From Minisyncoccota bacterium (lineage in GTDB: Bacteria > Patescibacteriota > Minisyncoccia > Phycocordibacterales > UBA9973), in NCBI GenBank assembly GCA_017991515.1, contig JAGOQI010000004.1, forward strand, positions 1 through 60,809: a stretch of 60,809 nucleotides of DNA, in the 5' to 3' direction. A program made the translations under genes and the position numbers. Of the stretch, positions 11,133-60,763 are shown piece by piece; the stretch's first letter is position 1, and each line of letters opens with the position of its first letter. Under the pieces are notes generated by a model that was not told where the DNA came from, did not search any database, and saw nothing but the letters and a program-made list of their open reading frames with translations.

Positions 11133-11327
11133 CTACTTTTTCTTGTATAAATTTCTTAATATTTGTTTGGCCCCCTCGGTGCCTTTTTTGCCAGCCAGGT
11201 TTTGTCCCAGTTCTGATGGACCAGTATTTAAGAATTTGGATCCTCGACGAACTTCGCCATGGTGGATATTACCCCTATAGGTACCCTTTCCTGTTTCAGG
11301 GTTCCACTTTGCATTTCCTTTCTTCAT
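11133..11327 (-). CDS. small basic protein (64 aa), unknown function
   Basis: MKKGNAKWNPETGKGTYRGNIHHGEVRRG...NLYKKK; Lys/Gly-rich; ATG at 11327 lies just downstream of the rplB terminator; TAAACT-8 nt-ATG. Confidence 0.5.
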   Translation of the reverse strand: MKKGNAKWNPETGKGTYRGNIHHGEVRRGSKFLNTGPSELGQNLAGKKGTEGAKQILRNLYKKK

Positions 11328-11374
11328 TTTAGTAAAGTTTATTTCCCAATATTGTAGTGATTTATAAAATAATT

Positions 11375-11400
11375 GCAAAAAACCACCCTTTCGGATGGTT
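11375..11400 (-). terminator. rho-independent terminator after rplB
   Basis: minus strand AACCATCC-GAAA-GGGTGGTT followed by a T-run. Confidence 0.75.
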
Positions 11401-11419
11401 TTTTATTTGTTATTTATGA

Positions 11420-23987: not shown

Positions 23988-23996
23988 TGTTACAAT
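23988..23996 (+). promoter_or_regulatory. extended -10 box (TGtTACAAT), 9 nt upstream of the ATG
   Basis: TGTTACAAT-tcaaaaatc-ATG. Confidence 0.5.
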
Positions 23997-30012: not shown

Positions 30013-30019
30013 ACTTGTA

Positions 30020-31660
30020 TTATACCAAACCTTGGATTCTCACTCGGACTCCCCCTCTCCAACCTGCTTCAAGTGTTCCGGTAAATGAAACAATCGCTCC
30101 TGTAACCATTTTTTCTTTCATATCAGAGTCTGTAAAAAAGTTAAAAGCTGTAGCCTTGCCGAAAGCGTCTTCCAAGTTACATTCTAAATGTTCTTTGTTT
30201 TTACCAAACATCTTTGTGCTAACAATTTTCACATTTTCAAATAAAAATAATGGTTGAGTATTTCCTACTCCAAATGGCGCTAAGACTCGAACTTTTTGTA
30301 AATGTCTGACTGAAACAATACCCAAATTCATAGATATAGCATCAGTATTTTTCTGCTCTTGTGCAACATGTTCTACGCTTCCAATAGCTTTATTTAATTC
30401 TTCTTCTAAAAAATGTATTTTTTCTTTCTCTACAGCAAATCCTCCGGCTGCTTGGTGTCCACCAGCGTGTAGTAGCACTCCCTCAGGCAAAGCTTGAAAA
30501 ATATATGCGGCATGATGTTCGTCTAGCATGCGACATGAACCCTTGATAAATCCGTCACCACTCTCTCCCCAAACAAAAAAACTTCTGTTATATGCTTCCT
30601 GTAACTTATTTGCTACCAACCCTAGTACTGCCGGCCTCCAAGATAAATCCCCTAGCACCACTATCGCTGGTAACTCTCTGGTATCTAGTTTTTTGTGCGA
30701 CTCTTTTACGATACGAGCTACCAAAACTTTTCTTTCATTATTTATCTTTTCTAAATTCTTAACTATAGCCAAAGCTTTATTTCTATCATCGGTAGATAGA
30801 AGTTCAAATGCCAACATTGGGGTATCCATACGAGAAGCGGCATTAAGGCGAGGTGCGACAGTAAATGTAAGATCTGTCTCGGTCAAAGTTTCTGGATCCA
30901 TGCGTTGCTCTGCAAAGAGAGTTCGGAGTCCCACTCTGCGAGTTTTTTTCATAACCATCATTCCAAAACTTGCCAGCATTCTATTTTCTCCTATTAACGG
31001 CACCATATCAGATAATGTGGCAAAACCTACCATATCAAGTAGCCATTTCTCCCAACCTTCTTTTGCACCAAACTTCTCTCTATGTTTTTCTAAAAATGCA
31101 CAAACTAAATAAAATGCCATAGTAGCACCACATGGATCTTGGTTTGGATAAGTCCCTTTTTTCGGATGAACTACAGCTAATGCTGCTGGGTACTGCACTA
31201 GTGGCGCATGATGATCTGTAACAATAATATCTATCTCTCGACTTCGAGCATCAGCAACTTGGGCGATAGCGGTAATACCAAGATCAACAGTAATGATGAG
31301 TGAAACACCTTTTTCTTCTAATACATCAATACCTAAAGTACTCAGTCCATACCCTTCATCATGTCTATCTGGAATATAAACATGAACATTTTCTATATAT
31401 CCAATAGCTTTAAAAAAGTCTACCAATATCACCGCACCAGGAATACCGTCACAGTCGTAGTCAGAGTAAATACCTATTTGCTCACCGTCTTTTATAGCTT
31501 TATATATTCTATTTACAGCTATTTCCATATCTTCAAACAAAAACAAATCTCCTATTTTATATTCAGGAAATAAGAAACTTTTTTGGTCTGTTTCAGATAG
31601 ATTTAATCTATCTAAGAGTATTTTCTGTAACTGGTCCGGAGTTGGAGTGGTAGGCGTCAT
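30020..31660 (-). CDS. recJ: single-stranded-DNA-specific exonuclease RecJ
   Basis: DHH family motifs: DYDCDG, VTDHH, GGHQAAGG (DHHA1). Confidence 0.9.
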   Translation of the reverse strand: MTPTTPTPDQLQKILLDRLNLSETDQKSFLFPEYKIGDLFLFEDMEIAVNRIYKAIKDGEQIGIYSDYDCDGIPGAVILVDFFKAIGYIENVHVYIPDRHDEGYGLSTLGIDVLEEKGVSLIITVDLGITAIAQVADARSREIDIIVTDHHAPLVQYPAALAVVHPKKGTYPNQDPCGATMAFYLVCAFLEKHREKFGAKEGWEKWLLDMVGFATLSDMVPLIGENRMLASFGMMVMKKTRRVGLRTLFAEQRMDPETLTETDLTFTVAPRLNAASRMDTPMLAFELLSTDDRNKALAIVKNLEKINNERKVLVARIVKESHKKLDTRELPAIVVLGDLSWRPAVLGLVANKLQEAYNRSFFVWGESGDGFIKGSCRMLDEHHAAYIFQALPEGVLLHAGGHQAAGGFAVEKEKIHFLEEELNKAIGSVEHVAQEQKNTDAISMNLGIVSVRHLQKVRVLAPFGVGNTQPLFLFENVKIVSTKMFGKNKEHLECNLEDAFGKATAFNFFTDSDMKEKMVTGAIVSFTGTLEAGWRGGVRVRIQGLV

Positions 31661-31667: not shown

Positions 31668-31676
31668 ATTGTAACA
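31668..31676 (-). promoter_or_regulatory. extended -10 box (TGtTACAAT), 7 nt upstream of the recJ ATG
   Basis: minus strand TGTTACAAT-ctttatc-ATG. Confidence 0.55.
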
Positions 31677-34229: not shown

Positions 34230-34257
34230 TTGGATATTATATCACACGAACAAAAAG

Positions 34258-35751
34258 CTAATTTTCTAATTCCTCCCAAAGAATTATTTGATATTTATCT
34301 GAAGCCAAGGGAAAGTTTGGTGGTGGAGCATAAAGAAGATTTGTATCATAATTAATAATACGATTTTCATACCCTGTATCATCTGTATAAGCAAAACCAT
34401 ATCTTAAATTTGTAGCAATCATACCAAAGAGGGTTACGCTGTTTCTATAAACAGTTGAACCACATTTATTTGTTCCAGCACCATTTGTTGGGGGAAGATA
34501 ATAATGTCTACCTACTCGTCCATTTTGAGCTATTAAAGCTGCATCTATTTGAAAAGTATCTGCTGAAAATAGACCTATATTTATATCATCTTGAGCAATA
34601 AGAGCAATAACATCACTACCGTTGTAGTTTGTATATCTTAGAGCATTATTTATGGTAATACTTTTACGCAAACTAGAATTATCTGGGAAACGAGCGGCGG
34701 CTATAGTAACACGAGCGGTGTTTATAGTTCCTTCTACCCAAATATGATCTTCTGCAAAAATAAGGCCATTAGCAGGGATAGCGTAATTTGCAATAAAAGT
34801 CTTATTTCCAATACTCCATGTACCCCAATTTGTATCAGTCCCCACATTTGAACAACCACTTGGAGCTGCTGCTAGGCTGGTAACTCGATACAAATCAAAA
34901 GTATCATTTGTCTTAAGAATTATCTGATAACCTTGATATCCAGAAGATGCAAAATATCTTCCACTTGCAATAGCTTGCGCTTTGATAGTTGCTAAATCAT
35001 TAGTTATACCTGTAAAGTCTGCAGCTGGTACAGGGAATTCTCTACCTGCTTTAAAAACATCACTTCGATTTGGAACACTTGACGGAGGTGCTTCACCTGG
35101 CCGATAAGAATCATTCACTGTAGTTGATCCAGAATTAACATGAGTATGAACACCAAATTCATTACTCCCTGTATGATCAGGATCGCTATAGCTTGTTTTA
35201 GAGCTTGTTATTTTATTCCAAATAACACCATCAAAACGAATTCCACCATTTGAATGAATTGGTCCATACACAACAGTTCCTTCACCAAAACGCATATCGG
35301 AATTTGCTAACACTGAATATTTTGCCAAAGAAGGTATAGCTAAGTGAACATTAATACTACGAGTTGCTGTTGGGTCAATCAAAGTTGCTCCTTTAGATTT
35401 TATTTTTACGAGAGTTGATCCTGATAAAGGAGGAGTTACTGTGAGTGTGTAAGAACCTATTTGATTACCATCTTTATCATTAAATGGATACACATATGGA
35501 CCAGCGCCTACATTACCTAAAGTATAACCAGTTTGATAATGAGCTAAATACCATCGCGCATATTCGATACCAGCTTCTGCAATTTGCAAAGAAACTTCAC
35601 GAGATTGGATTTTTCTAGAAAGCCTGCCGCTAGCTGCTGCCCAAGAAATAACAGCAGTAATAGTTAAAATACTTATAGCTGCAAAAATCATAACCCCAAT
35701 AAGAAGAAAACCTTTTTGTTTAGAATTATTTTTTGTCTTAAAAATGTTCAT
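34258..35751 (-). CDS. PilX-like / minor-pilin-associated large secreted protein
   Basis: 497 aa; N-terminal KGFLLIGVMIFAAISIL hydrophobic segment without Glu+5, followed by a Ser/Thr/Asn/Gly-rich beta-type region; last gene of the pilus operon. Confidence 0.5.
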   Translation of the reverse strand: MNIFKTKNNSKQKGFLLIGVMIFAAISILTITAVISWAAASGRLSRKIQSREVSLQIAEAGIEYARWYLAHYQTGYTLGNVGAGPYVYPFNDKDGNQIGSYTLTVTPPLSGSTLVKIKSKGATLIDPTATRSINVHLAIPSLAKYSVLANSDMRFGEGTVVYGPIHSNGGIRFDGVIWNKITSSKTSYSDPDHTGSNEFGVHTHVNSGSTTVNDSYRPGEAPPSSVPNRSDVFKAGREFPVPAADFTGITNDLATIKAQAIASGRYFASSGYQGYQIILKTNDTFDLYRVTSLAAAPSGCSNVGTDTNWGTWSIGNKTFIANYAIPANGLIFAEDHIWVEGTINTARVTIAAARFPDNSSLRKSITINNALRYTNYNGSDVIALIAQDDINIGLFSADTFQIDAALIAQNGRVGRHYYLPPTNGAGTNKCGSTVYRNSVTLFGMIATNLRYGFAYTDDTGYENRIINYDTNLLYAPPPNFPLASDKYQIILWEELEN

Positions 35752-35752
35752 A

Positions 35753-36391
35753 CTATTGTTGAATTTTTAAATTACGGATAGCAACCTGTGTGCTAACCTC
35801 AAGAGTAGTAGGAGATTGATTAACATCAGGATCAATTCTTATTTTAACACCAATTAATCTAACATCAGCTAGTAAGCCGTTAGTAGAAGAGACGACTCCT
35901 CCTGACCCTCCTGTATATGTAGAGTCATAGTATGTAAAAATAGGTATGCCATCAGGAATATTCCTAACTCCGGTCATAAAAACTTGTGTTTTTTTATTTG
36001 AAACATTATAGATCAATGGTGTGCCTGTTGGTTTTATAGTTTCTTTATTAAGAGTTGTACCTGTAAGACTATATCTAATCCATTCTTTTAACCCGTCATT
36101 ATCAATATCGCTATAAAAAGTAAAGCTATTGTCTCCAATAGACTCTATCGGGTAAGAACCGCTATTAGAAGGACTTGCAGAACGAATCTCTGCTGTCATT
36201 GGTCGTAAAAGTTTTTGAGCACTATCTCCTGCAGTAAGGCTATTACTAAAATAACGATTAAAAGAAAATACATCTCTTTGAAATTTTGAAATAACAATAC
36301 CTAGTATTGAAACTATCGATATAGTTACAACTAGTTCCATTAAAGAAAAACCATGATTAAGGTGAGATTTGTATTGTTTCATATGTATCAC
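35753..36391 (-). CDS. prepilin-type N-terminal cleavage/methylation domain protein (pilin or pseudopilin)
   Basis: class III signal ...NHG/FSLMELVVTISIVSILG with Glu at +5. Confidence 0.75.
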   Translation of the reverse strand: MIHMKQYKSHLNHGFSLMELVVTISIVSILGIVISKFQRDVFSFNRYFSNSLTAGDSAQKLLRPMTAEIRSASPSNSGSYPIESIGDNSFTFYSDIDNDGLKEWIRYSLTGTTLNKETIKPTGTPLIYNVSNKKTQVFMTGVRNIPDGIPIFTYYDSTYTGGSGGVVSSTNGLLADVRLIGVKIRIDPDVNQSPTTLEVSTQVAIRNLKIQQ

Positions 36392-38138
36392 TACTTATTG
36401 TAATATCTTTCTGTGTTGTCGTATACCCAGTTTTTGAAATAGTTATTGTATATGTTCCAGAAGATAACCCTCCAAAGTCTATTTGACCTGGTGGTAAACA
36501 TCCTGATGTGTAAGTAATAGCTACATCAGAGATAGAAGGTGTTTTTGAAGTGTCTGTAGTCGAAAGAAAAACTTTATATCTTAAATATTGATCTCCTGCA
36601 TGAATAGAAGCTATATTACTTGTTGATGTTGTATAGAAAGTTGCGTCTGTTCCATCAGGACCAAGAAAATTCCATGTTGTATTATCTAAATTTGTAGCAA
36701 TTTGAAAACGAATAGGATTAGTTCCCATACCTGTTGGCTGACTAGTTGGAGACCATATTAGCTGTTGTAGTGTTGCAGGAGCACCAAGATTTATTGTAGA
36801 AGAAACAAGCTCCCCACTATTAACATAAGTAGAACCTGATGAATTTAATTTTATTTGTCCTGGAGCATTAGTATAATCAATACCACCATCCGTGCTAGAA
36901 AAACGGCTTTTATCAGTAAAATCAACCTGACCAGAACCTCCATTCCAATCAGTTTGAGATATAGAACCAATACTTGTTTGACCAGAGAAAGTCCCAGATG
37001 GCCCACTTATTCCAACCGTAGCATCGGCTATAGGTAAGCCTGCAAGTTCTGTAACTGCTACAACTAACCGACTACCTGAAACAGCCGGCTTAATAGTGAG
37101 AAATACATCTTGACTTGAATTAGGAGGAATAGAAAGTGGAAATACAGGATTTGTTCCTGCTATTTCATAAGTACTTCCAGAAAGATTTATTTTATAAGTA
37201 TCCCACTCTATATTATTAATAGTGTTTGAAACACCAGAAGCGCTGAAGGCAATAGTATTTTTTAAAACATTTGGAGTACCTATCAACTTACTCCCCACAA
37301 AAGATCCTGAGACTCCTGTAATACTCGCACATTGAGCTGACTGAACCTTAAGTGCTATTGAGCTTATAGTATCTATGGCAAAAGTTGTTTGGCTAACAGT
37401 ATTGGCTACAACAGTTATATGAGGCTTTACAGGATTTGGATTGCCGGATCCTCCGGGTAAATAAGTTTGATCTGATGAATAACCTGTTTTTGAAACAGAT
37501 ATAAAATATTTCTCAGCCGAAGGGGGAGCATCCACAATAGTAAGAACTCCTGCGGAGTCAGTTATATCTGAAAAGTTAATTGCGGGAGAAACAGAGTTGT
37601 TTATTATAGAAACATTGGCATTTGCTACAGGTATTCCATTGGCATCAATAACCTTTATTACTAAAGCACCATTACCATTTTCTGTTTCTAGGCTTTTAGG
37701 AGCAACAGTGCTGGTATATTCAACTGATACAGACTGCGCACAACTTGTACAAATAACCTTTACAACCATCAATTTATTATCTGCGGGAGAAAGATCGTTC
37801 GGTGTTCCCCCAAGAGTTCCGTCAGCAGGAAGATCTATGTTTCGAATTGTAGTATTTACTGAAAATGTAACATTACCTCTAGAAACATTTTTCGTAGCTG
37901 GGATAACACCACTTGGAATACCTGAAATTATTCCAACATTACTATATTGAAGATTCCTAATAAATTCTATTTGTTCACTAGCTATTTGCGTAGCAATAGT
38001 TTTTGTACGAATACGAGCAGAGAGTTCTACTACTTTGGCATAGAGTTGATAAATAGCTAAAGAAAAAATAACAAAAAAAGCTGCTGCGACTAAGGTTTCC
38101 ATGAGTGTTGTACCTCGTTGTTTACCCTTATATCTCAT
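36357..38138 (-). CDS. giant pseudopilin with carboxypeptidase-regulatory-like beta-sandwich repeats
   Basis: 593 aa; prepilin-like KQRG/TTLMETLVAAAFFVIF; repeats such as LVIKVIDANGIPVANANVSI..TDSAGV..ISVSKTGYSS and GTYTITISKTGYTT. Confidence 0.7.
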   Translation of the reverse strand: MRYKGKQRGTTLMETLVAAAFFVIFSLAIYQLYAKVVELSARIRTKTIATQIASEQIEFIRNLQYSNVGIISGIPSGVIPATKNVSRGNVTFSVNTTIRNIDLPADGTLGGTPNDLSPADNKLMVVKVICTSCAQSVSVEYTSTVAPKSLETENGNGALVIKVIDANGIPVANANVSIINNSVSPAINFSDITDSAGVLTIVDAPPSAEKYFISVSKTGYSSDQTYLPGGSGNPNPVKPHITVVANTVSQTTFAIDTISSIALKVQSAQCASITGVSGSFVGSKLIGTPNVLKNTIAFSASGVSNTINNIEWDTYKINLSGSTYEIAGTNPVFPLSIPPNSSQDVFLTIKPAVSGSRLVVAVTELAGLPIADATVGISGPSGTFSGQTSIGSISQTDWNGGSGQVDFTDKSRFSSTDGGIDYTNAPGQIKLNSSGSTYVNSGELVSSTINLGAPATLQQLIWSPTSQPTGMGTNPIRFQIATNLDNTTWNFLGPDGTDATFYTTSTSNIASIHAGDQYLRYKVFLSTTDTSKTPSISDVAITYTSGCLPPGQIDFGGLSSGTYTITISKTGYTTTQKDITISSDTYETIQISP

Positions 38139-38139
38139 A

Positions 38140-39357
38140 TTAATTTATAGAATCCATTATCGAATACATAGGAGAGAGCATAGAGATAGCAAAAAATCCT
38201 ACAGCCACACCAATAAATATCATTAAAACAGGCTCAATAATAGTCGAAAGATCTTTTGTTTTATTATCAACTTCTGTTTCGTAAAAAGTAGCTACTTCTA
38301 AAAGCATGTCGCCTAAATTTCCAGTTTCCTCTCCCACCTCTATCATTTCTCCCATCATCACTGGATAAAGCTTAGTCTGAGCTTTAAAAACAGAAGAAAT
38401 AGGAACACCTTTTTGAACAACCTCTTCAACTTCGGCTAAAACAGCTTTGTAATAAACATTTTGAAGAACTTCTTTTGTTATCCCAATAGCCCTCCCTATA
38501 GAAACTCCTGAACTAAGCAAAGACGACATAGTTCTAGTTGTTCTGGCGGTATTAACTTCTTTTACAATTGTTCCAATAACTGGCAATCTGATAACCAGCC
38601 AGTCTATTTTTCTTTTTACTTTTGCATTTTTAAGAGCAAAAATAACTATAAAGACAACACTCACTATTCCAAGAACTACAAAAAGGAAGTTGTTAGCCAA
38701 TGTGTCACTAATCCAAACAACTATTTTTGTTGAAGCAGGGAGCTCTGTTCCAAGCTCTTTGAAAGTCTTAGTAAGAGTAGGTACAACATAAACAAACATC
38801 AATATTCCTATGATAAAAATAGCGCCTAAAATAATAGACGGGTACATCATAGCGCTTTTTATCTTTTTATTAAGAGCGTAGCTTTTCTCAAGAGTGACAC
38901 CTATTTCAGACAAAGTATTTGGTAGTCCACCAGACTCTTCTCCTGCTTTAACCATAGCCACAAATAAGGCAGAGAAAACTTTTGGATATTTTGCCAAGCC
39001 GTCTGAAAAAGTTCCTCCTTTGTTAATAGTCTCAGATAAATCCTCAATAATTTGTTTAAAATATTTATTTCTTGTTTGTTTTGAAAGTACTTGCAATGCT
39101 CTAGAGATAGAAAGTCCTGCCTTAAGCATTCCTGACAAGTTCTTTGTCATCAAAATCTTTTCACTTAGTTTTATATTACCTGCCCCAAAAGAAATAGAGT
39201 TTAATTTACCTAAAAGTCCTCCAGAAGATTGGTTGATAAATATTGGGGTCAATCCTTTATTTCTAAGTTCATTTATAGCCTCAACTTTATCGCGAGCTTC
39301 AATAACACCTTCTGAAGCAGTATTGTTTGCATTACGAGCTTTATAAGAAAATTTCAT
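38140..39357 (-). CDS. pilC: type IV pilus / T2SS platform protein (GspF/PilC family)
   Basis: 405 aa, two T2SSF repeats, three TM segments. Confidence 0.9.
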   Translation of the reverse strand: MKFSYKARNANNTASEGVIEARDKVEAINELRNKGLTPIFINQSSGGLLGKLNSISFGAGNIKLSEKILMTKNLSGMLKAGLSISRALQVLSKQTRNKYFKQIIEDLSETINKGGTFSDGLAKYPKVFSALFVAMVKAGEESGGLPNTLSEIGVTLEKSYALNKKIKSAMMYPSIILGAIFIIGILMFVYVVPTLTKTFKELGTELPASTKIVVWISDTLANNFLFVVLGIVSVVFIVIFALKNAKVKRKIDWLVIRLPVIGTIVKEVNTARTTRTMSSLLSSGVSIGRAIGITKEVLQNVYYKAVLAEVEEVVQKGVPISSVFKAQTKLYPVMMGEMIEVGEETGNLGDMLLEVATFYETEVDNKTKDLSTIIEPVLMIFIGVAVGFFAISMLSPMYSIMDSIN

Positions 39358-39409
39358 ACTTATATAAGTGTATCAAATTTTTAGTTTGTTTGTGTGTGAA
39401 ATATTTATT

Positions 39410-41158
39410 TTACTCACTAACTACACGCAATACTTCGTCGATAGTAGTGTTGCCTTGTATCGCTTGGAAAATACCGTCTTCAATCATAGTCATCATTCCC
39501 TCTTTTTTCCCTTGACCTTCTATTTCATCTGCAGTTCCACCACGGAGAATTATTTCTTTGATAGCTGAGCTTACCTTTAGTGCTTCGTGAATACCAACAC
39601 GGCCTTTATATCCATCTTCTGACTCTTCGCTACTTTTTGCTCGGAAAAATGGTATTTCTTTCCAAGGTGTTCCTGGTTTTATTATTTTTTCATTTTCCAA
39701 AAATGGTCGGAGGTGATCCATGTCTATAACATCACTTAGTGCTTTAAGTTCTCCGTCTGACAAGAAGTACTGCTCTTTGGCATTTGTTAGTCGTCGCACC
39801 AATCGTTGTGCCACAATAACTTTCGCAGTTGAAACGATAAGAAATGGTTCTACTCCCATATCTATAAGTCTCGGTACGGCACCAGCAGCACTATTGGTGT
39901 GGATAGTTGAAAGAACTAAGTGACCAGTAAGTGCGGCATTAACAGCCAAAGAGGCAGTTTCTCCATCTCGAATCTCTCCCACCATAATAATATTAGGGTC
40001 TTGTCGAAGAAGCGCTCGGAGTCCGTTGGCAAAAGTCATACCTATTTCACTCTTAACTTGTGTTTGATTTATACGAGGCATTTGATACTCAATAGGGTCT
40101 TCAACAGTTGATATATTTACTTCTGGAGTGTTCAATATATCGAGCATGGTGTACAAAGTTGTTGTCTTACCTGAACCAGTTGGTCCTGATGCTAAAACAA
40201 TACCTGAGTGTTGTTTCATTCCTTCATGAATTCTTTCCAAACTCTCTCCATGAAAACCAAGACCTTCCAAAGTAAAACCATGAGAGCCTTCCCTCAAAAT
40301 ACGAATAACCGTCTTTTCTCCATAATAAGTTGGCAAGGTTGAGACACGGAAAGAAACCGGCATTTCATCCATCACTATTTTAAATCGTCCATCTTGTGGC
40401 AATCTCTTTTCATCAAGCTTCAGGTTTGAAAGTACCTTGATACGAGCTGTTACTGCTGGAGCTGCTTCTTTAGGTAGCAACATGGCATCATGAAGTATTC
40501 CATCTATACGATATCGAATTATTAAATTCTCATCACTTGGTTCTATGTGTATATCAGAAGTATTTTGAAGTATGGCATGAGAAATAAGACTATCGACAAT
40601 CTTAATCACAGGCAAATCCTCTGCCATTTCTTTCAAATCCTTCTCTGTTGTTTTGTCGTCCTTATCTTCTACTTTTTGAATACTACCAACCTCTTTTTGA
40701 ATAATAGAGTCAAACTCTGCTTGCAAACTTTTCTTGTATTGTAATAAAACACTCTTTATAGACTCGCTATCTGTAAGTCTTGGGAGTATTCTAAGGCCTG
40801 TTTTTTTCTTTATGAAATCAATAGCGGGAAGATTATCTATATCCAACATACATATTTCCAAGTCTGTACCCCGCTTTTTATAAGCGATAATGTTGTACTT
40901 ACGAGCAATAGCTTCCGGTATCATATGTAAAACATCTCTATCAATTTTCTCTTTTTCTAAATTTAAATAAGGAATACCAAGTACATAAGCATGTAGTTTT
41001 TGTAATTCAGACTCTTTGATCTTGCCAGAAGATAGTAAAAAATCAGAAAGGCTTGTACCTTTTTTAATTTTTTCTTTTTCAAATATAGCCAAGTCATCTA
41101 CTGATACTATATTTGTATCAAGTAACAAACTCTGAAGTTTATTTTCATCAACAACCAT
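39410..41158 (-). CDS. pilB: type IV pilus assembly ATPase (GspE/PilB family), lacking the tetracysteine motif
   Basis: N-terminal GSPII_E_N-like domain, Walker A GPTGSGKTT, Walker B IMVGEIRD, His box GHLVLSTIHTN; only one Cys in the whole protein. Confidence 0.92.
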   Translation of the reverse strand: MVVDENKLQSLLLDTNIVSVDDLAIFEKEKIKKGTSLSDFLLSSGKIKESELQKLHAYVLGIPYLNLEKEKIDRDVLHMIPEAIARKYNIIAYKKRGTDLEICMLDIDNLPAIDFIKKKTGLRILPRLTDSESIKSVLLQYKKSLQAEFDSIIQKEVGSIQKVEDKDDKTTEKDLKEMAEDLPVIKIVDSLISHAILQNTSDIHIEPSDENLIIRYRIDGILHDAMLLPKEAAPAVTARIKVLSNLKLDEKRLPQDGRFKIVMDEMPVSFRVSTLPTYYGEKTVIRILREGSHGFTLEGLGFHGESLERIHEGMKQHSGIVLASGPTGSGKTTTLYTMLDILNTPEVNISTVEDPIEYQMPRINQTQVKSEIGMTFANGLRALLRQDPNIIMVGEIRDGETASLAVNAALTGHLVLSTIHTNSAAGAVPRLIDMGVEPFLIVSTAKVIVAQRLVRRLTNAKEQYFLSDGELKALSDVIDMDHLRPFLENEKIIKPGTPWKEIPFFRAKSSEESEDGYKGRVGIHEALKVSSAIKEIILRGGTADEIEGQGKKEGMMTMIEDGIFQAIQGNTTIDEVLRVVSE

Positions 41159-41165: not shown

Positions 41166-41174
41166 ATTGTATCA
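41166..41174 (-). promoter_or_regulatory. extended -10 box (TGaTACAAT), 7 nt upstream of the pilB ATG
   Basis: minus strand TGATACAAT-ataaaca-ATG. Confidence 0.55.
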
Positions 41175-41233: not shown

Positions 41234-42601
41234 TTAAAACTCTATAAATAAGAATTTTTTTCTAAGAGTTACACTTGCTTGGTCTGAAGCAGATAAGCTT
41301 CCATTTACACAGTTAATAGTATAAGTAGTATTTCTAGTTGGACTAACATCGATAGACCCATTCAACGCTCCCGCTGTAAATCCTATTCCTGAACAAGAAG
41401 TAGCTCCTGAAGATATCCAGCTAAGAGTCGAGCTTTCACCTGAAGCAATTTTTTCTGGTGTTGCAATTAAGTCTACTGTTATGCCTGGACCAGCAGTAAG
41501 TACAGTGACTGTTTTTTGGTCTACTGCATTTCCAAAAGGTCCAGTACACGACAGTGTAAATGTAGTAGTAGATGTTAGTGTTCCTGTTGAATCATGAGGA
41601 TAAGAACTAGTAACAGGTTTTGGTCCTGTCCAAGACCCGCCACTAGCTGTACAAGATGTAACATTAGAACTTATCCAAGATAGTGTCGCTGAGCCACCTG
41701 AGAATATAGACATTGGAGAAGCATTGAGTGTTACTGTTGGACCTTTTGTAGATGTCTCACAAGTACTACCATTCCAAGCTAAACCACTATCACAAGTAGC
41801 ATTTGCAGTAGACTGAGCAAGTTCTATAGAATTGTGATAAAGATAAAATGTAGTTGCGCCATAACTAAGAACAGTAGACTGAGAACCGCTAGCAAGAGGA
41901 GATGGTGTGAAAGAAGAAGGAGCACCTGTATTTCTAGTAATGGATGTTGAACTTGCTGTAAGATCAGCCGTTGTCCAATCAACAGTGCTATTACAATTAG
42001 CAGCTCCTGAGGCAATATTACAAGAATTTGCCAAAAGAGTACCTGTAGGTCCAGTATTATTTGGTACTACAACATTTTCAAAAGATAACCATCCAACAAT
42101 CTCACTCCCCCAAGCATAACCAAAAACATTATCACCTGAACGAGTTGCTCCATAAGAATACGGTGCTTGTTGTACACCTGCAGTATTTCTATCATGGTCA
42201 TTTGTTGAAGAGAAAGATACCCATCCATCCCAACCTTCACTTGCAGATGTAAATCTTGCCCAACCTTTTAAAGAGTTAGAGATCATTTGTGCTCCACAAG
42301 TACCAGCTGTACCTGCTGGACAACCAGTATTAAAATCAAGCCAGCCAATATTGTCATTCCACCCGTAACCTGTCCATGAGCCGTCAGTGCTTTGCATAAC
42401 ACTATATGAAACAGTTCCACATGTTGAGTTATTACTACAGTTTAAACTAACCCATCCAACAGTATCTGACCACAACCAACCAGTAACAGGAACTTCTCCG
42501 GCAGCAGAAACATTTTTTTGATTCAAATAGTTAAAACCAATATAAAAACTAGATACTACTAGAATAGATGCAAACAATAAAGTTATATATTTTTTAAACA
42601 T
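41234..42601 (-). CDS. secreted repeat protein: four Trp-rich repeats plus three Ig-like Ser/Thr-rich modules
   Basis: signal/anchor; GWLWSDTVGWVSLN, GYGWNDNIGWLDFN, GWDGWVSFS, GYAWGSEIVGWLSFEN; then the modules ATLSWISSNVTSCTASGGSW / STLSWISSGATSCSGIGF. Confidence 0.65.
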   Translation of the reverse strand: MFKKYITLLFASILVVSSFYIGFNYLNQKNVSAAGEVPVTGWLWSDTVGWVSLNCSNNSTCGTVSYSVMQSTDGSWTGYGWNDNIGWLDFNTGCPAGTAGTCGAQMISNSLKGWARFTSASEGWDGWVSFSSTNDHDRNTAGVQQAPYSYGATRSGDNVFGYAWGSEIVGWLSFENVVVPNNTGPTGTLLANSCNIASGAANCNSTVDWTTADLTASSTSITRNTGAPSSFTPSPLASGSQSTVLSYGATTFYLYHNSIELAQSTANATCDSGLAWNGSTCETSTKGPTVTLNASPMSIFSGGSATLSWISSNVTSCTASGGSWTGPKPVTSSYPHDSTGTLTSTTTFTLSCTGPFGNAVDQKTVTVLTAGPGITVDLIATPEKIASGESSTLSWISSGATSCSGIGFTAGALNGSIDVSPTRNTTYTINCVNGSLSASDQASVTLRKKFLFIEF

Positions 42602-42603
42602 AA

Positions 42604-42882
42604 TTAATTTTTATTAAGCGCCCCTTTTAATAAAACCGCTCTTTCTTCGTCTGTTAAAGGCTTAGAATCTTTTTGCATTTCTACTATGATAGCTTCTTTT
42701 TGTTCTTCAGGAATAGTTGTAGTATCACTATTTAAAGTATTTAATATCTGAACCTTTTCTTCATAAGTAGGCTCACTACTTTTGTTCCCATTTTTATATT
42801 TTATAACTAAGAAAACAATAACTAAAATAAAAATAATTGAAATAATCCAAGGTAAAATACTTTTTTTGTCGGTGTCTTGCAT
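42604..42882 (-). CDS. small single-pass membrane protein
   Basis: MQDTDKKSILPWIISIIFILVIVFLVI...; start chosen at the ATG 8 nt downstream of a TGtTAATAT box (42891-42899); its stop lies 2 nt from the next start. Confidence 0.5.
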   Translation of the reverse strand: MQDTDKKSILPWIISIIFILVIVFLVIKYKNGNKSSEPTYEEKVQILNTLNSDTTTIPEEQKEAIIVEMQKDSKPLTDEERAVLLKGALNKN

Positions 42883-42957
42883 ATACATATATATTAACAC
42901 ACAAAAGAACTACACAAAACAATATCCACAGCTTTTACACATTTTGAACTAGAAAAA

Positions 42958-43062: not shown

Positions 43063-43974
43063 ATGAAAAAGATTTTAAACGCTTTGGGGATGAGCGTGTT
43101 GTTCATCTCTATATTTTTAGTGTCTTGTGGTAAAGGTTCTAACACCATAACACCACAACCAGATCCTCCACCTACACCTCCTTCCCCTGTTTATTCCATC
43201 AACTCAACAACTGTTTCTGATATTACTCAAACATCAGCTACAGTAACTACGACAGTTGGTGCTACGAACAGTGGAAATATCTATTCGAAAGGATTTTATT
43301 GGTCTGAAACCAGTCCGATTCCTGGAGAAAGTGATAATTTCTTAGATGGTGGAAGCGGTGCCGGAAGCATGACCAAATCTATCTCAGGGCTTTTGGCTAA
43401 CAAACCTTACTATGTAAGAGCTTGTTATAAAAAAAGTTCCACAGATAGTTGGACTTGGAACAGTGAAGTTAGCTTCACAACCTTGCCTGTACCTCCAAAG
43501 TACAGCGAAGGTCAAGTTATGCCCGATGGTTTCACAATCAATATTGTTTACAACAATGGTAACACTGCCAAAGGTGTTAAAAATGTTGGTGGTATCAACG
43601 GCTACGGGTTTGGTTGTATCGGTACTCCTACAGGTGCGACAGGTACAGCTATCGGAACAGGTATCACAAATACCAATACCATAGCATCTATTTGTCCTGT
43701 TAGTGCTGCCAAGCTTTGCTTGGATGCTGGAGGTTATCTTCCATCTACAGATGAAATGAAAGAGCTCTGGGACAAAAGAAATGTTGCTGGTATATCAGCT
43801 GTATTTACTACTTCAGAAGGTTCATTTTGGACTTCTACTGAAGTAGATGGTACTTATGCCAAAGCATTTGATTGGGGACAAGGAGTTTCTTTCACAAACT
43901 GGAAACAATCTGGACCAGGAAGTGCTCCACCATTAACAAGAGCAGGAGTAATAGCTGTAAAAAATTACAATTAA
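43063..43974 (+). CDS. lipoprotein with an Fn3-like domain and a DUF1566 (Lcl C-terminal-like) domain
   Basis: lipobox FLVSC; Pro-rich linker; ITQTSATVTTT...GFYWSE...KPYYVRAC..SFTT; C-terminal part GYLPSTDEMKELW ... FWTSTE. Confidence 0.6.
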   Translation: MKKILNALGMSVLFISIFLVSCGKGSNTITPQPDPPPTPPSPVYSINSTTVSDITQTSATVTTTVGATNSGNIYSKGFYWSETSPIPGESDNFLDGGSGAGSMTKSISGLLANKPYYVRACYKKSSTDSWTWNSEVSFTTLPVPPKYSEGQVMPDGFTINIVYNNGNTAKGVKNVGGINGYGFGCIGTPTGATGTAIGTGITNTNTIASICPVSAAKLCLDAGGYLPSTDEMKELWDKRNVAGISAVFTTSEGSFWTSTEVDGTYAKAFDWGQGVSFTNWKQSGPGSAPPLTRAGVIAVKNYN

Positions 43975-43990: not shown

Positions 43991-44027
43991 AAATCCCGAC
44001 TTCAAATTGAAGTCGGGATTTTTTTAT
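43991..44027. terminator. bidirectional terminator between convergent genes
   Basis: AAATCCCGACTTCA-AA-TTGAAGTCGGGATTTTTTT. Confidence 0.85.
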
Positions 44028-44047: not shown

Positions 44048-44671
44048 TTAACAAGGCACTACTTCTGAACCTAGTTTAGATGAATTACTGTAGTTTCCAG
44101 GGACTATATTCCAAGCTCTGCTATCAGAATTTCTCTGAACATAACCCCACGAAGCTGGTACTTTTGTTTGTAGGTTTGCATCAAGCCACACATGAACACC
44201 AGAGTCTACTTGTGTCTCGCCTGTAGTATAAACAGTGGCAGGCGTTGCACAATTTCTTGAAACACTAACAGCAACACCATTAGAAACAGGAGGGAACCCT
44301 CCACCACCTCCTACAGTAGTCAAAAGGCAAGAAGTGAGTTTGCCTGTACTATCTGAACATACACCTGTAGCTACACTATTTGGATTTAAATTATTTATCT
44401 GAACATAACCACTTAAAACTTTTGCTCCGTCTGTTCTCCAAACAGCTAAATTATTTCCAGACATCAATCCTTTTGTTTCAAGCGTAATACCAATAGGATC
44501 AGTAGGAGTTCCACCTTTTGCTTGTCCAGTACTAGTAGTATTTATAAGACCTGAAACATCATTTGCTGGTGGATTGGCTGGAGCAGGGAAAGCTGAAGCA
44601 TACCGAACACCAAAACCTATAACAAGGATAACTAGGAAAGATTTTATTATGTCTAAATTTGTTTTTTTCAT
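44048..44671 (-). CDS. secreted protein P1: conserved PPxxNV/QxKGG N-module, Gly5 hinge, unique ~85-aa C-terminal domain
   Basis: signal ..RYASA/F; PANPPANDVSGLINTTSTGQAKGG; C.D...KL..C; GGGGG; ends in Cys. Confidence 0.7.
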   Translation of the reverse strand: MKKTNLDIIKSFLVILVIGFGVRYASAFPAPANPPANDVSGLINTTSTGQAKGGTPTDPIGITLETKGLMSGNNLAVWRTDGAKVLSGYVQINNLNPNSVATGVCSDSTGKLTSCLLTTVGGGGGFPPVSNGVAVSVSRNCATPATVYTTGETQVDSGVHVWLDANLQTKVPASWGYVQRNSDSRAWNIVPGNYSNSSKLGSEVVPC

Positions 44672-44689
44672 ATATTTATATTTTAAAAA

Positions 44690-45769
44690 TTAATTTGGAA
44701 CACTATTACCACAAGCTCTAATACCTACATATCCGTTTACTCCACCACTATAACATCCATCGTACAAGTAATAACCCGCACAACCCGGTATCGATGATGG
44801 ATTATTGAAATCAGGTGATTGGAAGTAGATTTGTCCAATATTACTACAGCCAGTAGGTTCTGTACCACCATTGCCAGGCTGAGCAAAAAGATATGGTGTT
44901 GTACTTACATCTAAACAAATATTTCCCGAGCCTGCTGCACAAACATTTTTATTGTGAACCAGATATCCGTCAGCAAAATATGTTCTATCTCCTGATAATT
45001 TGAAGTTAAACAGTGGTGTTGTTTCTGCTACTTGTTCACTTTCAATAGAATAAATATGAACTAATCCATTTTCTGTAATAAGAGTATCTCCAACAGCCAG
45101 TTGTGTTACTTCTATACCGATGTTCTCTTGTTTTGTTTTCTCTGGATTGATAGATTTCCAACCTTCTGTTGTTTTAAACGGGTGTTCTTCTGTTACGAAT
45201 GCTTTTTCGCCGTTGAAACCAAATATAATTCCGTCTGATTTAGGAGGTCTGTGATAGTCCAAAACAACATTATTTGTAGTTTCTCCTTTCAAAACATCGC
45301 CTATTTTTACATCTTGAATATTCTTTTTACTACCATCAGCCATTGTTACTAAAGTATCAGCTATGAAGCAGTTAAAAGCAGATGACCAAGATGTTCCGCC
45401 ACCTCCACCTCCACCTCCAATAGGTATCAAACAATCTGTAGTTAGTTTGTGTTCTTCATCTACACAAATTTTACGCTTGCCAGAAGTAGGGTGTAGATCA
45501 TCTATATATAGATTGCCAGATATAGTAGCGTTATTCCAAATAGCTAAACTATTTACTGCCAAGTTTCCTGAAACATCCAACATGGAACCAGATATAGGAG
45601 AACCTCCTTTTGATTGTTCAGTTGTTGTAGAGTTTAAAATATTAGCGACATTTCCGTTTGGAGGATTGCTTGTAGGACCAAATGCTGCATAAACATAGTT
45701 AAGCCCAAGACCAAAAACAACCATTAGAACTATAAATTTTATTTTGTTTAGTATGTTTATTTTTTTCAT
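44690..45769 (-). CDS. secreted protein P2: same N-module, Gly8 hinge, Hint/BIL autoprocessing domain, 86-aa Cys/Gly/Tyr-rich tail
   Basis: TSNPPNGNVANILNSTTTEQSKGG; CVDEEHKLTTDC; GGGGGGGG; Hint blocks CFIADTLVTMADG, VTEEHPF, GYLVHN. Confidence 0.8.
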   Translation of the reverse strand: MKKINILNKIKFIVLMVVFGLGLNYVYAAFGPTSNPPNGNVANILNSTTTEQSKGGSPISGSMLDVSGNLAVNSLAIWNNATISGNLYIDDLHPTSGKRKICVDEEHKLTTDCLIPIGGGGGGGGTSWSSAFNCFIADTLVTMADGSKKNIQDVKIGDVLKGETTNNVVLDYHRPPKSDGIIFGFNGEKAFVTEEHPFKTTEGWKSINPEKTKQENIGIEVTQLAVGDTLITENGLVHIYSIESEQVAETTPLFNFKLSGDRTYFADGYLVHNKNVCAAGSGNICLDVSTTPYLFAQPGNGGTEPTGCSNIGQIYFQSPDFNNPSSIPGCAGYYLYDGCYSGGVNGYVGIRACGNSVPN

Positions 45770-45788
45770 ATGTTTTTAATCTAACAGC

Positions 45789-46241
45789 TTATTCTATTAA
45801 ACAAATACTTGAGCAACCGTCCCCATTAGCAGTATTACCATCATCACACTGTTCAGCTTTTTCTATATAAGAGTTTCCGCACTGAGCATCACAAATAACA
45901 AGTTTATTGGAAGTATCTATACATACAGGACGAAGACCTGAAGTCCAAACACCTTGGTCTGAAGTCAAAGCACTTACAGTTACTTGATTTTCTACTGTCA
46001 TGTTCTGAATAACATATAGAACATTAGCAGAAAAAGTTTGAGCAACATCCAAAAGTGAACCCCTAAAAGAGCGTGAACCACCTTTTGATTGAGGATTTGA
46101 ACTAGTATTTATTGGACCAGAAACATTGTTTCCTGGAGGAACAGCTGTTGGAGCATTCCACGCAGCTAGAGCAATAGTACCGACAAAAAAAGTAGCAATT
46201 AAAAATTGTGTTAACAACTTCTTCAAATCAATATTTTTCAT
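45789..46241 (-). CDS. secreted protein P3: same N-module, then a myxococcal-type cysteine-rich repeat
   Basis: PTAVPPGNNVSGPINTSSNPQSKGG; CIDTSNKLVIC; CGNSYIEKAEQCDDGNTANGDGCSSIC. Confidence 0.7.
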   Translation of the reverse strand: MKNIDLKKLLTQFLIATFFVGTIALAAWNAPTAVPPGNNVSGPINTSSNPQSKGGSRSFRGSLLDVAQTFSANVLYVIQNMTVENQVTVSALTSDQGVWTSGLRPVCIDTSNKLVICDAQCGNSYIEKAEQCDDGNTANGDGCSSICLIE

Positions 46242-46248: not shown

Positions 46249-46257
46249 ATTGTAACA
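46249..46257 (-). promoter_or_regulatory. extended -10 box (TGtTACAAT), 7 nt upstream of the P3 ATG
   Basis: minus strand TGTTACAAT-tttaata-ATG. Confidence 0.55.
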
Positions 46258-53294: not shown

Positions 53295-53342
53295 AATGCT
53301 TAATATTATACCAGTCGCTCTATTGCCTTGCGAGTCGCTTCT

Positions 53343-60690: not shown

Positions 60691-60692
60691 TG

Positions 60693-60763
60693 TGCGGGAT
60701 AGGAGAGTCGAACTCCTCACCACAGTTTGGAAAACTGTTATCTTACCGATAAACTAATCCCGC
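60693..60763 (-). tRNA. tRNA-Gly (anticodon UCC), 71 nt, CCA not encoded
   Basis: hand-folded: acceptor GCGGGAT/ATCCCGC, anticodon stem ACAGT/ACTGT with loop TTTCCAA, T-arm AGGAG-TTCGACT-CTCCT, discriminator A. Confidence 0.8.

What the first reader, a model, noticed from the sequence alone, without database searches (positions are those of the whole stretch)
44048..46241. Three tandem secreted paralogs: one conserved N-terminal module, three unrelated C-terminal heads (candidate polymorphic surface/effector system next to the pilus operon)
Three consecutive minus-strand genes (45789-46241, 44690-45769, 44048-44671) sit 19 and 18 nt apart. They share a promoter-like TGtTACAAT-N7-ATG at 46249-46257 and are closed by the strong hairpin at 43991-44027. 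Each protein starts with a Sec-type signal (ALA/AW, VYA/AF, ASA/F). Each then carries the same module, which I can align by eye: P-x-x-x-P-P-x-x-N-V-[SA]-x-x-[IL]-N-[ST]-[ST]-[ST]-x-x-Q-[SA]-K-G-G ... L-[DE]-V ... N-x-L-[AY]-[VI] ... C-x-D-x-x-x-K-L-x-x-C. In two of the three this is followed by a poly-Gly hinge (G5, G8). After the hinge the sequences are unrelated. P1 has an ~85-aa domain ending in Cys. P2 has a Hint/BIL autoprotease plus an 86-aa Cys/Gly/Tyr-rich tail. P3 has CGNSYIEKAEQCDDGNTANGDGCSSIC, which matches the myxococcal cysteine-rich repeat pattern (CG..v...E.CDDGN...gDGCs..C). A constant delivery module, a hinge, exchangeable heads and a Hint domain together are the grammar of polymorphic toxin/adhesin loci. 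I cannot assign the N-module to any named family. The locus lies between a type IV pilus-like operon and nusA in what looks like an episymbiotic CPR genome. An attachment or host-directed effector role is inference only.
Basis: partly seen in the sequence, partly recalled or inferred. Interest (0 to 1): 0.8.

Follow-up and report, generated by a model that had tools for sequence, protein, structure and literature searches.

The report
Three-gene surface-protein array with swappable heads
Three neighbouring genes of an ultra-small (CPR) bacterium encode secreted proteins that share a previously undescribed 90-residue base domain but carry different outer "heads"; related bacteria keep the same array at the same chromosomal site, often beside type IV pilus genes, so it looks like a modular attachment system rather than a toxin locus.

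Summary
There are three co-oriented genes: gA 45789-46241, gB 44690-45769 and gC 44048-44671. They have 19- and 18-nt gaps, Sec-type signals, a shared ~90-aa N-module, Gly hinges and three unrelated C-termini.

The N-module matches nothing in Pfam, NCBIfam, PHROGs, PADLOC or PDB. It defines at least 179 protein clusters. It always sits directly behind the signal peptide, either alone (28 of 97 full-length cases) or in front of at least 42 unrelated heads.

The heads are adhesin-like: InlB-B repeat, fn3, CARDB, Gly-rich, LVIVD and Cys-rich repeat. None is a toxin. No immunity ORFs exist.

Arrays of two or three N-module genes occupy one conserved site: ppa-nusA | GW-repeat protein + array | (pilB-pilC-pilins) | tpiA-pgk. 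A close syntenic relative has three entirely different heads at the same site.

gB's Hint is a BIL-type domain (Cys134 ... His-Asn273, then a near-invariant Lys). It is followed by a conserved six-Cys tail, not a variable toxin. In other genomes this cassette sits on the first or the third gene instead.

Best reading: a modular cell-surface display or attachment system, with the N-module as a common mounting or assembly base. The toxin/effector reading is not supported.

The parts
46249..46257 (-). Extended -10-like promoter TGTTACAAT, 7 nt before the gA ATG. It implies a leaderless-type transcript start for the three-gene unit.
   Evidence: Sequence. The same motif-to-ATG geometry occurs at 8 of 13 motif copies in the window. 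Function not tested.
45789..46241 (-). gA, 150 aa. Sec signal (aa 1-26; 46164-46241), N-module type A (aa 27-117; 45891-46163), one Cys-rich acidic repeat (aa 120-150; 45792-45884).
   Evidence: First-position genes form a clade with 161/200 bootstrap support. It has 6 Cys, an even number.
44690..45769 (-). gB, 359 aa. Sec signal (aa 1-28; 45686-45769), N-module (aa 29-113; 45431-45685), hinge with G8 (aa 114-133; 45371-45430), BIL-type Hint (Cys134 to Asn273; 44951-45370), six-Cys tail starting with Lys274 (aa 274-359; 44693-44950).
   Evidence: The public annotation starts at Met16 (344 aa) and so cuts off the signal peptide.
44048..44671 (-). gC, 207 aa. Sec signal (aa 1-27; 44591-44671), N-module (aa 28-115; 44327-44590), hinge with G5 (aa 116-125; 44297-44326), 82-aa head closed by Cys141-Cys207 (44051-44296).
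   Evidence: The only head homolog seen is P0161. The head is absent from the L089 ortholog P0122.
43991..44021 (.). Bidirectional intrinsic-terminator-like hairpin (14-bp stem) closing the three-gene unit and the convergent lipoprotein gene.
43063..43974 (+). Convergent 303-aa lipoprotein-like gene (signal ending in ...LVSC). It is kept at the same position in relatives L089 and L095. It belongs to the neighbourhood, not necessarily to the system.
41234..42900 (-). Constant partners of N-module arrays: a 98-aa single-TM protein (42604-42900) and a 455-aa GW-repeat secreted/membrane protein (41234-42601).
   Evidence: GW homolog found next to arrays in 13 of the 16 relative loci searched, plus the window itself. 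No Pfam or NCBIfam hit; a PDB sequence search returned only chance-level hits (E >= 0.07).
34258..41158 (-). Type IV pilus gene set: PilB ATPase (39410-41158), PilC platform (38140-39357), 593-aa pilin-like protein (36357-38138), 212-aa N-methyl pilin (35753-36391) and a 497-aa protein (34258-35751). It is frequently, but not always, adjacent to N-module arrays.

Best explanation
**What it is.** The three genes form one transcription unit, running from a leaderless-type promoter to the terminator. They encode three Sec-exported, disulfide-stabilised cell-surface proteins of a Paceibacteria-type CPR bacterium.

**The base.** Each mature protein begins with the same previously undescribed ~90-residue domain: [WF]xxP[TS]xxPPxxN ... 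QxKGG ... CxDxxGKLxxC. I read this domain as the common base by which the proteins are mounted or assembled on the envelope. Assembly is probably with each other, and with the always-adjacent GW-repeat membrane protein and/or the pilus apparatus.

**The heads.** A Gly- or Pro-rich hinge then carries an exchangeable head that does the binding. gA has a Cys-rich acidic repeat. gC has an 82-aa disulfide-closed domain. gB has a small six-Cys domain.

**The Hint in gB.** In gB a BIL-type Hint domain lies between hinge and head. After export it should self-process. Cys134 forms a thioester at Asn133|Cys134, and Asn273 cyclises to cut Asn273|Lys274. This excises the Hint and either separates the stalk from the six-Cys tail or ligates the two.

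**Shown.** Gene structure, module family, head diversity, synteny, the Hint catalytic motifs, and the absence of toxin or immunity features.

**Inferred.** Signal cleavage, surface location, co-assembly, an adhesion role, and the actual Hint chemistry.
For: - **Secreted and extracellular.**
  - Signal peptides have small residues at -3/-1.
  - Cys counts are even in gA (6) and gC (4). gB has 9 = 2 + 6 + the catalytic Cys134.
  - CPR bacteria are enriched in MdbA/VKOR-type extracellular disulfide machinery (PMC6744442).
- **The module is an autonomous N-terminal unit.**
  - It forms 179 clusters and starts at about residue 27.
  - 28 of 97 full-length members are module-only proteins, typically ending at or just after the last Cys (often ...KLxxCP).
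  - Two Cys are invariant, and Q and K are near-invariant, in 76 sequences.
- **Heads are adhesin-type and exchangeable.**
  - Pfam on 69 members gave Flg_new_2 13, Gly_rich_2 8, DUF4215 7, fn3 5, CARDB 2 and LVIVD 1.
  - The tails fall into 42 clusters.
  - L095 has the same synteny but three other heads.
  - The L089 ortholog of gC lacks a head.
- **The array and its site are conserved.**
  - 12 of 17 arrays are triads.
  - The block ppa-nusA | GW | array | (pilB pilC) | tpiA pgk is kept across relatives.
  - First-position genes form a clade in 161/200 bootstraps, and third-position genes in 81/200.
- **The Hint cassette moves between carriers.**
  - It sits on the second gene here, the third in L005 and the first in L007, L015.
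  - There is one per Hint-selected array. This fits carriers that are functionally interchangeable, as in a co-assembly.
- **The module may need partners.** The AF2 model of the module has pLDDT 79 but pTM 0.42 and few intrachain strands, i.e. it is extended.
- **Hint identity.**
  - Profile hits to the solved BIL2 (6Y75/6TMM) at E = 1.6e-7 over the full length.
  - Further hits to the 'bacterial intein-like domain' 2LWY and the gp41-1 intein.
  - C-F-[IV]-A-D-T ... Y-[LF]-V-H-N-K is conserved in 111 homologs.
Against: - No experimental or proteomic evidence of export, surface location or assembly was available.
- Co-assembly rests on conserved triads and an extended monomer model. No multimer prediction could be run.
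- Pairs rather than triads exist (L091, L093). Second-position orthology is not resolved (37/200 bootstraps).
- Pilus genes are absent from the site in L012-L014, L017 and L093, and not seen within the flanks held for L005, L007. Any pilus link is therefore facultative.
- Foldseek found no structural relative that could confirm an anchor or stalk role.
- 13 of the 17 arrays were collected through a Hint-containing query (the window, L005, L007, L008 and the loci). 'One Hint per array' is therefore biased, and the unbiased arrays L091, L093 and L095 have none.
Confidence: 0.5

Rival explanations
1. **Pilus-associated non-pilin adhesins (PilY1/PilC-like).** The Sec-exported N-module docks onto the type IV pilus, at the tip or on minor pilins. 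The heads give the pilus its binding specificity for host cells.
For: - N-module genes lie 18-80 nt upstream of pilB, in the same orientation, in L091, L015, L022 and L028. They lie near pilB in the window and in L095.
- In the Patescibacterium TM7x, pilus proteins without a PilD-type signal and with extra C-terminal domains (PilX1/PilX2) are proposed PilY1-like adhesins (PMC12206443).
Against: - In L012-L014, L017 and L093 the array and GW protein sit at the same site without pilB/pilC.
- There is no PilY1 or pilin domain hit and no class III (G|FTLIE) signal.
- pilB has its own promoter-like motif.
- A convergent gene and a terminator separate the array from the pilus genes in the window.
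Confidence: 0.2
2. **Polymorphic toxin/effector system.** The N-module delivers the protein, the Hint releases a C-terminal toxin, and the heads are exchangeable effectors.
For: - The grammar of constant N-terminus, hinge and variable C-termini is present, with a Hint in one member.
- PT-HINT gives a weak hit, E = 0.043.
- A true array of that kind using the same Hint subfamily exists in a Bdellovibrionales genome, L050.
Against: - No toxin or enzyme domain occurs in any head.
- There are no downstream immunity-like ORFs or orphan cassettes.
- The post-Hint tail is conserved, with four invariant Cys across lineages.
- The array sits at a fixed chromosomal site in conserved order.
- The triad is identical in four assemblies.
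- No PADLOC hit.
Confidence: 0.06
3. **Self-polymerising non-T4P fibre.** Module-only proteins are the major subunit, head-bearing paralogs are tip or decorating subunits, and the conserved mature N-terminus acts as a donor strand (TasA- or archaeal-thread-like).
For: - Module-only proteins are abundant, 28 of 97.
- Conservation starts at the very first mature residues.
- The monomer model is extended.
- Weak, non-significant BFVD matches are dominated by phage fibre proteins, E >= 0.6.
Against: - The window's own array has no module-only member.
- The N-terminal segment is Pro-rich, which is poor for a donor beta-strand.
- There is no structural match to TasA, threads or pilins.
- No dedicated signal peptidase or chaperone gene lies in the array.
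Confidence: 0.1

Closest known systems
Bacterial intein-like (BIL) Hint domains in variable secreted proteins (Amitai et al. 2003; Dassa et al. 2004). Solved examples: Tetrahymena BUBL BIL2 (6Y75/6TMM) and Clostridium BIL (2LWY).
   Same: - About 140 aa, with an N-terminal Cys nucleophile and a C-terminal His-Asn.
- No Cys/Ser/Thr at +1.
- Embedded in a non-conserved secreted protein.
- Profile match at E = 1.6e-7 over the full length.
- BIL domains are described as sitting in hypervariable regions and auto-cleaving at either end (PMC7765530).
   Different: - All Pfam Hint-clan hits are below gathering thresholds.
- This subfamily has a near-invariant Lys at +1 (97/111) and is followed by a conserved Cys-rich tail.
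- The cassette moves among the members of a conserved paralog array.
- No cleavage or splicing was tested.
Polymorphic toxin systems with a PT-HINT releasing domain (Zhang, Aravind et al. 2012).
   Same: Conserved N-terminal part, variable C-terminal parts and a Hint before the C-terminal module.
   Different: No toxin domains, no immunity genes and no orphan cassettes. The tail is conserved. The array is small (2-3 genes) and sits at a fixed core-genome site.
PilY1/PilC-type non-pilin adhesins of type IV pili, and PilX1/PilX2 of Saccharibacteria TM7x (PMC12206443).
   Same: Sec-type rather than prepilin-type signal. Encoded in or beside T4P clusters. Variable binding domains.
   Different: - No sequence or fold relation was detected.
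- The conserved part is N-terminal and only 90 aa.
- The pilus linkage is facultative.
Myxococcal Cys-rich acidic repeat proteins (TIGR02232 / DUF4215).
   Same: gA residues 120-150 are a bona fide single repeat above both curated cut-offs. Cys-rich extracellular proteins of CPR have been proposed to act in attachment (PMC4736985).
   Different: Here there is one repeat on a 90-aa base, not a large multi-repeat protein, and no MYXO-CTERM-type sorting signal.
Modular Gram-positive surface proteins with a constant wall-anchoring module and variable passenger (SLH, CWB2 or sortase-anchored adhesins).
   Same: One constant module, a flexible linker and diverse Ig-like, fn3 or repeat passengers.
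   Different: The constant module is a new family at the N-terminus. There is no LPXTG. Binding to the wall or S-layer is untested.

Membership tests
Polymorphic toxin system | Conserved N-terminal secretion or trafficking region shared by paralogs | tested here: met
   Shared Sec signal plus N-module.
Polymorphic toxin system | Hypervariable C-terminal domain belonging to recognisable toxin (nuclease, deaminase, peptidase, pore) families | tested here: not met
   No such Pfam or NCBIfam hits in the three proteins or in 69 family members. The post-Hint tail is conserved across lineages.
Polymorphic toxin system | Immunity gene immediately downstream of each toxin; orphan cassettes | tested here: not met
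   The gaps of 19 and 18 nt hold no ORF. The terminator follows gC directly.
Hint superfamily / BIL-type domain | N-terminal Cys/Ser nucleophile at the domain's first residue | tested here: met
   Cys134 is invariant in 11 aligned homologs, and the CF[IV] motif recurs in 111.
Hint superfamily / BIL-type domain | C-terminal His-Asn (Asn cyclisation site) | tested here: met
   H272-N273 are invariant. The Y[LF]VHN motif occurs in 111 homologs.
Hint superfamily / BIL-type domain | Significant profile similarity to solved or curated Hint domains | tested here: met
   PDB profile search: BIL2 6TMM/6Y75 at E = 1.6e-7 across 140 positions, 2LWY at 2e-4, gp41-1 intein at 7e-4. Pfam Hint-clan models hit only below their gathering scores.
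Canonical (class 1) intein | Cys/Ser/Thr at +1 of the C-extein for trans-esterification; insertion in a conserved host protein | tested here: not met
   +1 is Lys in 97/111. The host proteins are variable secreted proteins.
Hint superfamily / BIL-type domain | Actual auto-cleavage or splicing activity | not testable with these tools
   Requires expression of gB and mass spectrometry.
TIGR02232 / DUF4215 Cys-rich repeat | Score above the curated cut-off | tested here: met
   gA 120-150: 47.6 bits against 20.8 (NCBIfam) and 29.1 against 27 (Pfam).
Type IV pilin / pseudopilin | Class III signal (short basic leader, G|F/M-T-L-I-E, N-methylation motif) | tested here: not met
   No N_methyl hit in gA-gC, whereas the neighbouring 212-aa pilin has one. 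The sequences show AxA-type SPase I sites.
Sortase-assembled pilins / LPXTG surface proteins | C-terminal LPXTG-like sorting signal | tested here: not met
   No LP.[TSA]G in any of the three.
Phage tail-fibre-like proteins | Significant sequence or fold similarity to fibre or receptor-binding proteins; phage context | tested here: not met
   - PHROGs gave 0 hits for 76 modules.
- The best BFVD Foldseek match has E = 0.6.
- No close relatives in IMG/VR.
- The context is housekeeping genes with uniform GC.

The most novel reading that the evidence does not exclude
The BIL domain may act as a single-turnover ligase rather than a mere self-protease. The thioester formed at the C-terminus of the N-module stalk (Asn133~Cys134) would be resolved by a lysine amine. 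Three candidate lysines exist:
- the near-invariant Lys274 of its own tail;
- the near-invariant Lys of the QxKGG motif in a neighbouring N-module, which would give a sortase-independent covalent cross-link within the three-subunit assembly;
- an amine on the host-cell surface, which would give covalent adhesion by an episymbiont.

There is a precedent. The closest solved relative, Tetrahymena BIL2, ligates its N-extein to a Lys epsilon-amine (PMC8616854).
Probability: 0.12. Interest if true: 0.85.

Novelty: new variant of a known kind. Interest (0 to 1): 0.6.

Why it matters
CPR/Patescibacteria live attached to other cells, and how they recognise and hold hosts is largely unknown beyond type IV pili.

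This locus defines a compact and widely conserved gene set at a fixed site:
- an undescribed 90-aa base domain;
- a GW-repeat partner protein;
- 2-3 paralogs with freely exchanged binding heads, often fused to the pilus cluster.

It gives a concrete, testable candidate for the specificity-determining surface layer of these organisms. It also shows a BIL/Hint cassette that moves between the subunits of one array and carries a conserved Lys at the splice junction. That makes Hint-mediated ligation in bacterial surface assembly experimentally addressable.

Tried and rejected
- **Word-indexed homolog search with the 3-sequence module profile.** It returned only 2 hits. It was replaced by the exhaustive HMMER search.
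- **The search for related loci with the module alignments A5 and A3.** I used the Hint-containing alignment A7 instead. This biases those loci towards Hint-bearing arrays, so I added unbiased look-ups via P0135, P0131, P0146 and P0124.
- **AF2 of full gC.** The head was not modelled (pLDDT < 50).
- **Foldseek.** The gC model and the module model gave nothing against PDB. Against BFVD the module model gave only E >= 0.6.
- **PDB sequence searches.** The module profile, the gB tail, the gC head and the GW protein all gave nothing significant.
- **Family libraries.** PHROGs gave nothing significant for the three proteins (one weak hit over gB's Hint) and nothing for 76 modules; PADLOC found nothing for the three proteins; NCBIfam found nothing for 76 modules; Pfam gave one chance-level hit.
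- **Literature.** No paper was found on this module, or on Hint domains in Patescibacteria.
- **Rejected ideas.**
  - Prophage or HGT island: GC is uniform and the flanks are housekeeping genes.
  - Pilin: no class III signal.
  - Sortase substrate: no LPXTG.
  - Lipoprotein: no lipobox Cys in gA-gC.
- **My first tail clustering.** It merged 55 tails through low-complexity links. I redid it with SEG filtering.
Full report
**1. Observation**

The gaps are 19 and 18 nt and contain no ORF.

TGTTACAAT lies at 46249-46257, 7 nt before the gA ATG. This is not an isolated pattern:
- TGNTAYAAT occurs 13 times in the window against 6.8 expected. Only 4 of 100 shuffles reach 13.
- Eight copies lie 6-10 nt before an ATG that opens an ORF of at least 128 aa. 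These include pilB, tpiA, recJ and rnhA.

Leaderless-type promoters therefore seem usual in this genome, and the call for gA is credible.

A 14-bp-stem hairpin at 43991-44021 separates gC from a convergent gene.

Each protein begins with a basic n-region, a hydrophobic core and small residues at -3/-1 (ALA|AW, VYA|AF, ASA|F). AF2 models residues 4-26 of gC as a helix.

The shared module aligns at 34-39% identity with invariant P..PP, Q.KGG and C.D...KL..C. An HMM of it finds only these three ORFs in the six-frame translation of the window, at E about 1e-36 to 1e-35, with the next hit at 0.65.

- gA residues 120-150 are a genuine Cys-rich acidic repeat. TIGR02232 scores 47.6 bits (cut-off 20.8) and DUF4215 scores 29.1 (cut-off 27).
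- gB has a Hint domain followed by an 86-aa tail.
- gC has a G5 hinge and an 82-aa head with no family match.

Cys counts fit extracellular disulfides. gA has 6 and gC has 4. gB has 9, which is 2 in the module, 6 in the tail and the catalytic Cys134.

**2. The N-module is an undescribed, CPR-restricted domain family**

None of the three proteins, and none of 76 module sequences scanned one by one, matches a Pfam, NCBIfam or PHROGs family. The single exception is a chance hit at E = 0.008. PADLOC and a PDB profile search are also negative.

An exhaustive HMMER search of 1.84 billion representatives found 179 clusters at E <= 1e-3 and 49 at E <= 1e-10. The module almost always starts near residue 27, directly after the signal peptide.

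Of the 97 full-length members in that unbiased set:
- 28 are module-only proteins of about 107-164 aa, typically ending at or just after the second Cys (often ...KLxxCP).
- 69 carry tails of at least 40 aa, which fall into 42 unrelated BLAST clusters.

Pfam on those 69 proteins gives InlB-B-repeat (13), Gly_rich_2 (8), DUF4215 (7), fn3 (5), CARDB (2) and LVIVD (1). There is no toxin or enzyme domain.

In 76 aligned modules the two Cys are invariant, and the Q and K of QxKGG are at least 90% conserved.

AF2 on that alignment gives pLDDT 79 but pTM 0.42 and very little intrachain secondary structure, i.e. an extended chain. Foldseek finds nothing in PDB. In BFVD it finds only non-significant matches (E >= 0.6), dominated by phage fibre proteins.

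Among the 95 loci fetched, only CPR MAGs contain the module: Nomurabacteria, Paceibacteria/Paceibacterota, MAGs labelled Saccharibacteria, and unclassified 'bacterium' MAGs. The Bacteroidota, Proteobacteria and Bdellovibrionota loci that share the Hint do not contain it.

**3. The array and its site are conserved**

The window is contig JAHZTO010000388.1 of GCA_020049755.1. The identical triad occurs in three other assemblies.

In relatives, N-module genes again form tandem arrays. Twelve of 17 arrays are triads: the window, L005, L007, L012-L017, L022, L028 and L095. The rest are pairs.

The chromosomal site is the same throughout: ppa-nusA, then a GW-repeat protein (homolog of window 41234-42601, usually preceded by a ~95-aa single-TM protein), the N-module array, optionally pilB-pilC-pilins, then tpiA-pgk.
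- pilB follows the array within 18-80 nt in L091, L015, L022 and L028, and lies close in the window and in L095.
- In L012-L014, L017 and L093 the array is followed directly by tpiA-pgk.

The constant partner is therefore the GW protein, and the pilus linkage is frequent but facultative.

In the window the array lies on the far side of the GW gene, separated from it by a convergent lipoprotein gene. L095 and L089 keep that same layout.

**4. Heads really are exchanged**

L095 was found through an unbiased module hit. It has the window's synteny and a 53%-identical GW protein. Its triad (235, 264 and 258 aa) carries three other heads, with no Hint and no Cys repeat.

In L089 the ortholog of gC has a 75%-identical module but is a 121-aa module-only protein.

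A neighbour-joining tree of 13 modules from five arrays gives these groupings:
- first-position genes group in 161/200 bootstraps;
- third-position genes group in 81/200;
- second-position genes are not resolved (37/200).

Against that background the Hint-plus-tail cassette is on the second gene in the window. It is on the third gene in L005 and L022. It is on the first gene in L007 (there fused behind the Cys repeat) and in L015.

**5. The Hint**

Pfam Hint-clan models hit gB only below threshold. A profile of gB and ten homologs, however, matches solved BIL-type domains:
- Tetrahymena BUBL BIL2 (6TMM/6Y75), E = 1.6e-7 over 140 positions;
- the 'bacterial intein-like domain' 2LWY, E = 2e-4;
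- the gp41-1 intein, E = 7e-4.

In 111 homologs the domain is 131-151 aa (median 140). It starts C-F-[IV]-A-D-T and ends Y-[LF]-V-H-N. The next residue is Lys in 97 of 111, usually with a Cys at +4.

With Lys at +1, canonical splicing is excluded. N-terminal thioester formation and C-terminal Asn cyclisation both remain possible, as described for BIL domains (PMC7765530).

The tails behind the Hint share four invariant Cys across distant CPR lineages. The tail is therefore a conserved partner of this Hint, not a polymorphic toxin.

For contrast, locus L050 (Bdellovibrionales) shows what a classical polymorphic array with this Hint looks like. Three ~600-770-aa ORFs there share about 90%-identical N-terminal 500-aa regions; two of them gave Hint hits.

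**6. Interpretation**

The toxin/effector reading fails its defining tests: no toxin domains, no immunity genes, a conserved tail, and a fixed core-genome site.

The most economical reading is a surface display or attachment system. The N-module is the mounting or assembly base, the hinge is a spacer, and the heads are binding modules. Three observations point to co-assembly of the paralogs:
- the triad is conserved;
- the carrier of the Hint cassette is interchangeable;
- the monomer model is extended.

This is inference only.

The neighbourhood suggests cooperation with the GW-repeat protein and, where present, the type IV pilus. Non-PilD-signal, domain-extended pilus proteins have been proposed as adhesins in TM7x (PMC12206443). 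Cys-rich extracellular CPR proteins have been proposed to act in attachment (PMC4736985).

A more adventurous reading is that the BIL domain ligates the stalk to a lysine amine. It rests on the near-invariant Lys at +1, the near-invariant Lys in the module, and the isopeptide-forming chemistry reported for the closest solved relative (PMC8616854).

**7. Novelty and verdict**

The module family and the conserved array are, as far as the libraries and literature searched show, undescribed. The kind of system, a modular surface protein with a BIL domain in a variable secreted protein, is known. I rate it a new variant of a known kind, with interest 0.6.

Noticed in passing
window 1636-1644, 23988-23996, 30019-30027, 31668-31676, 34236-34244, 41166-41174, 46249-46257, 53305-53313: Extended -10 motifs (TGNTAYAAT) sit 6-10 nt upstream of the ATG of eight long ORFs. 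Leaderless-type mRNAs therefore appear to be the norm in this genome.
   Followed up: partly
window 41234-42900 (minus strand): A 98-aa single-TM protein and a 455-aa protein with repeated GW(x)WS..(I/V)GW(I/V)S motifs match no Pfam or NCBIfam family; a PDB sequence search of the 455-aa protein gave only chance-level hits. The GW protein has a homolog next to the N-module array in 13 of 16 relatives' loci searched, and a small TM protein precedes it where checked (L007, L008, L091, L093, L095). This is an undescribed conserved partner family.
   Followed up: partly
window 44690-45769: The public annotation of gB (344 aa, P0001 and the L001 gene call) starts at Met16 and removes the n-region of the signal peptide. 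The 359-aa ORF matches the MKK... starts of its paralogs.
   Followed up: yes
window 43063-43974 (+): A convergent 303-aa lipoprotein-like gene (…LVSC lipobox-like signal, weak Lcl_C hit at E = 0.006) is inserted between the array and the GW/pilus genes. Homologs sit at the same place in L089 and L095.
   Followed up: partly
L050 (Bdellovibrionales chromosome OZ242172.1), about 4279-12019: Three tandem ~600-770-aa ORFs share about 90%-identical N-terminal 500-aa regions; two of them gave hits to the same Hint subfamily. This looks like a classical polymorphic-toxin-like array.
   Followed up: no
P0013, P0028; L035, L041, L044 (Sphingobacteriia/Cytophagia genomes): Some homologs carry two to five Hint copies of this subfamily in one protein. 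In P0013 one Hint follows another after only 4 residues (…VHNKGSSCF…).
   Followed up: no
gB residues 192-232 and many homologs (Pfam column): The Pfam AXH model (Ataxin-1/HBP1) hits this Hint subfamily recurrently but below threshold. PDB AXH chains appear at E = 0.004-0.05 in the profile search. This could be a remote relation or a model artefact.
   Followed up: no
window 1-23000: The left part of the window is a long minus-strand run of short genes that I did not examine. The far right end has a tRNA-Gly(TCC) at 60692-60763.
   Followed up: no
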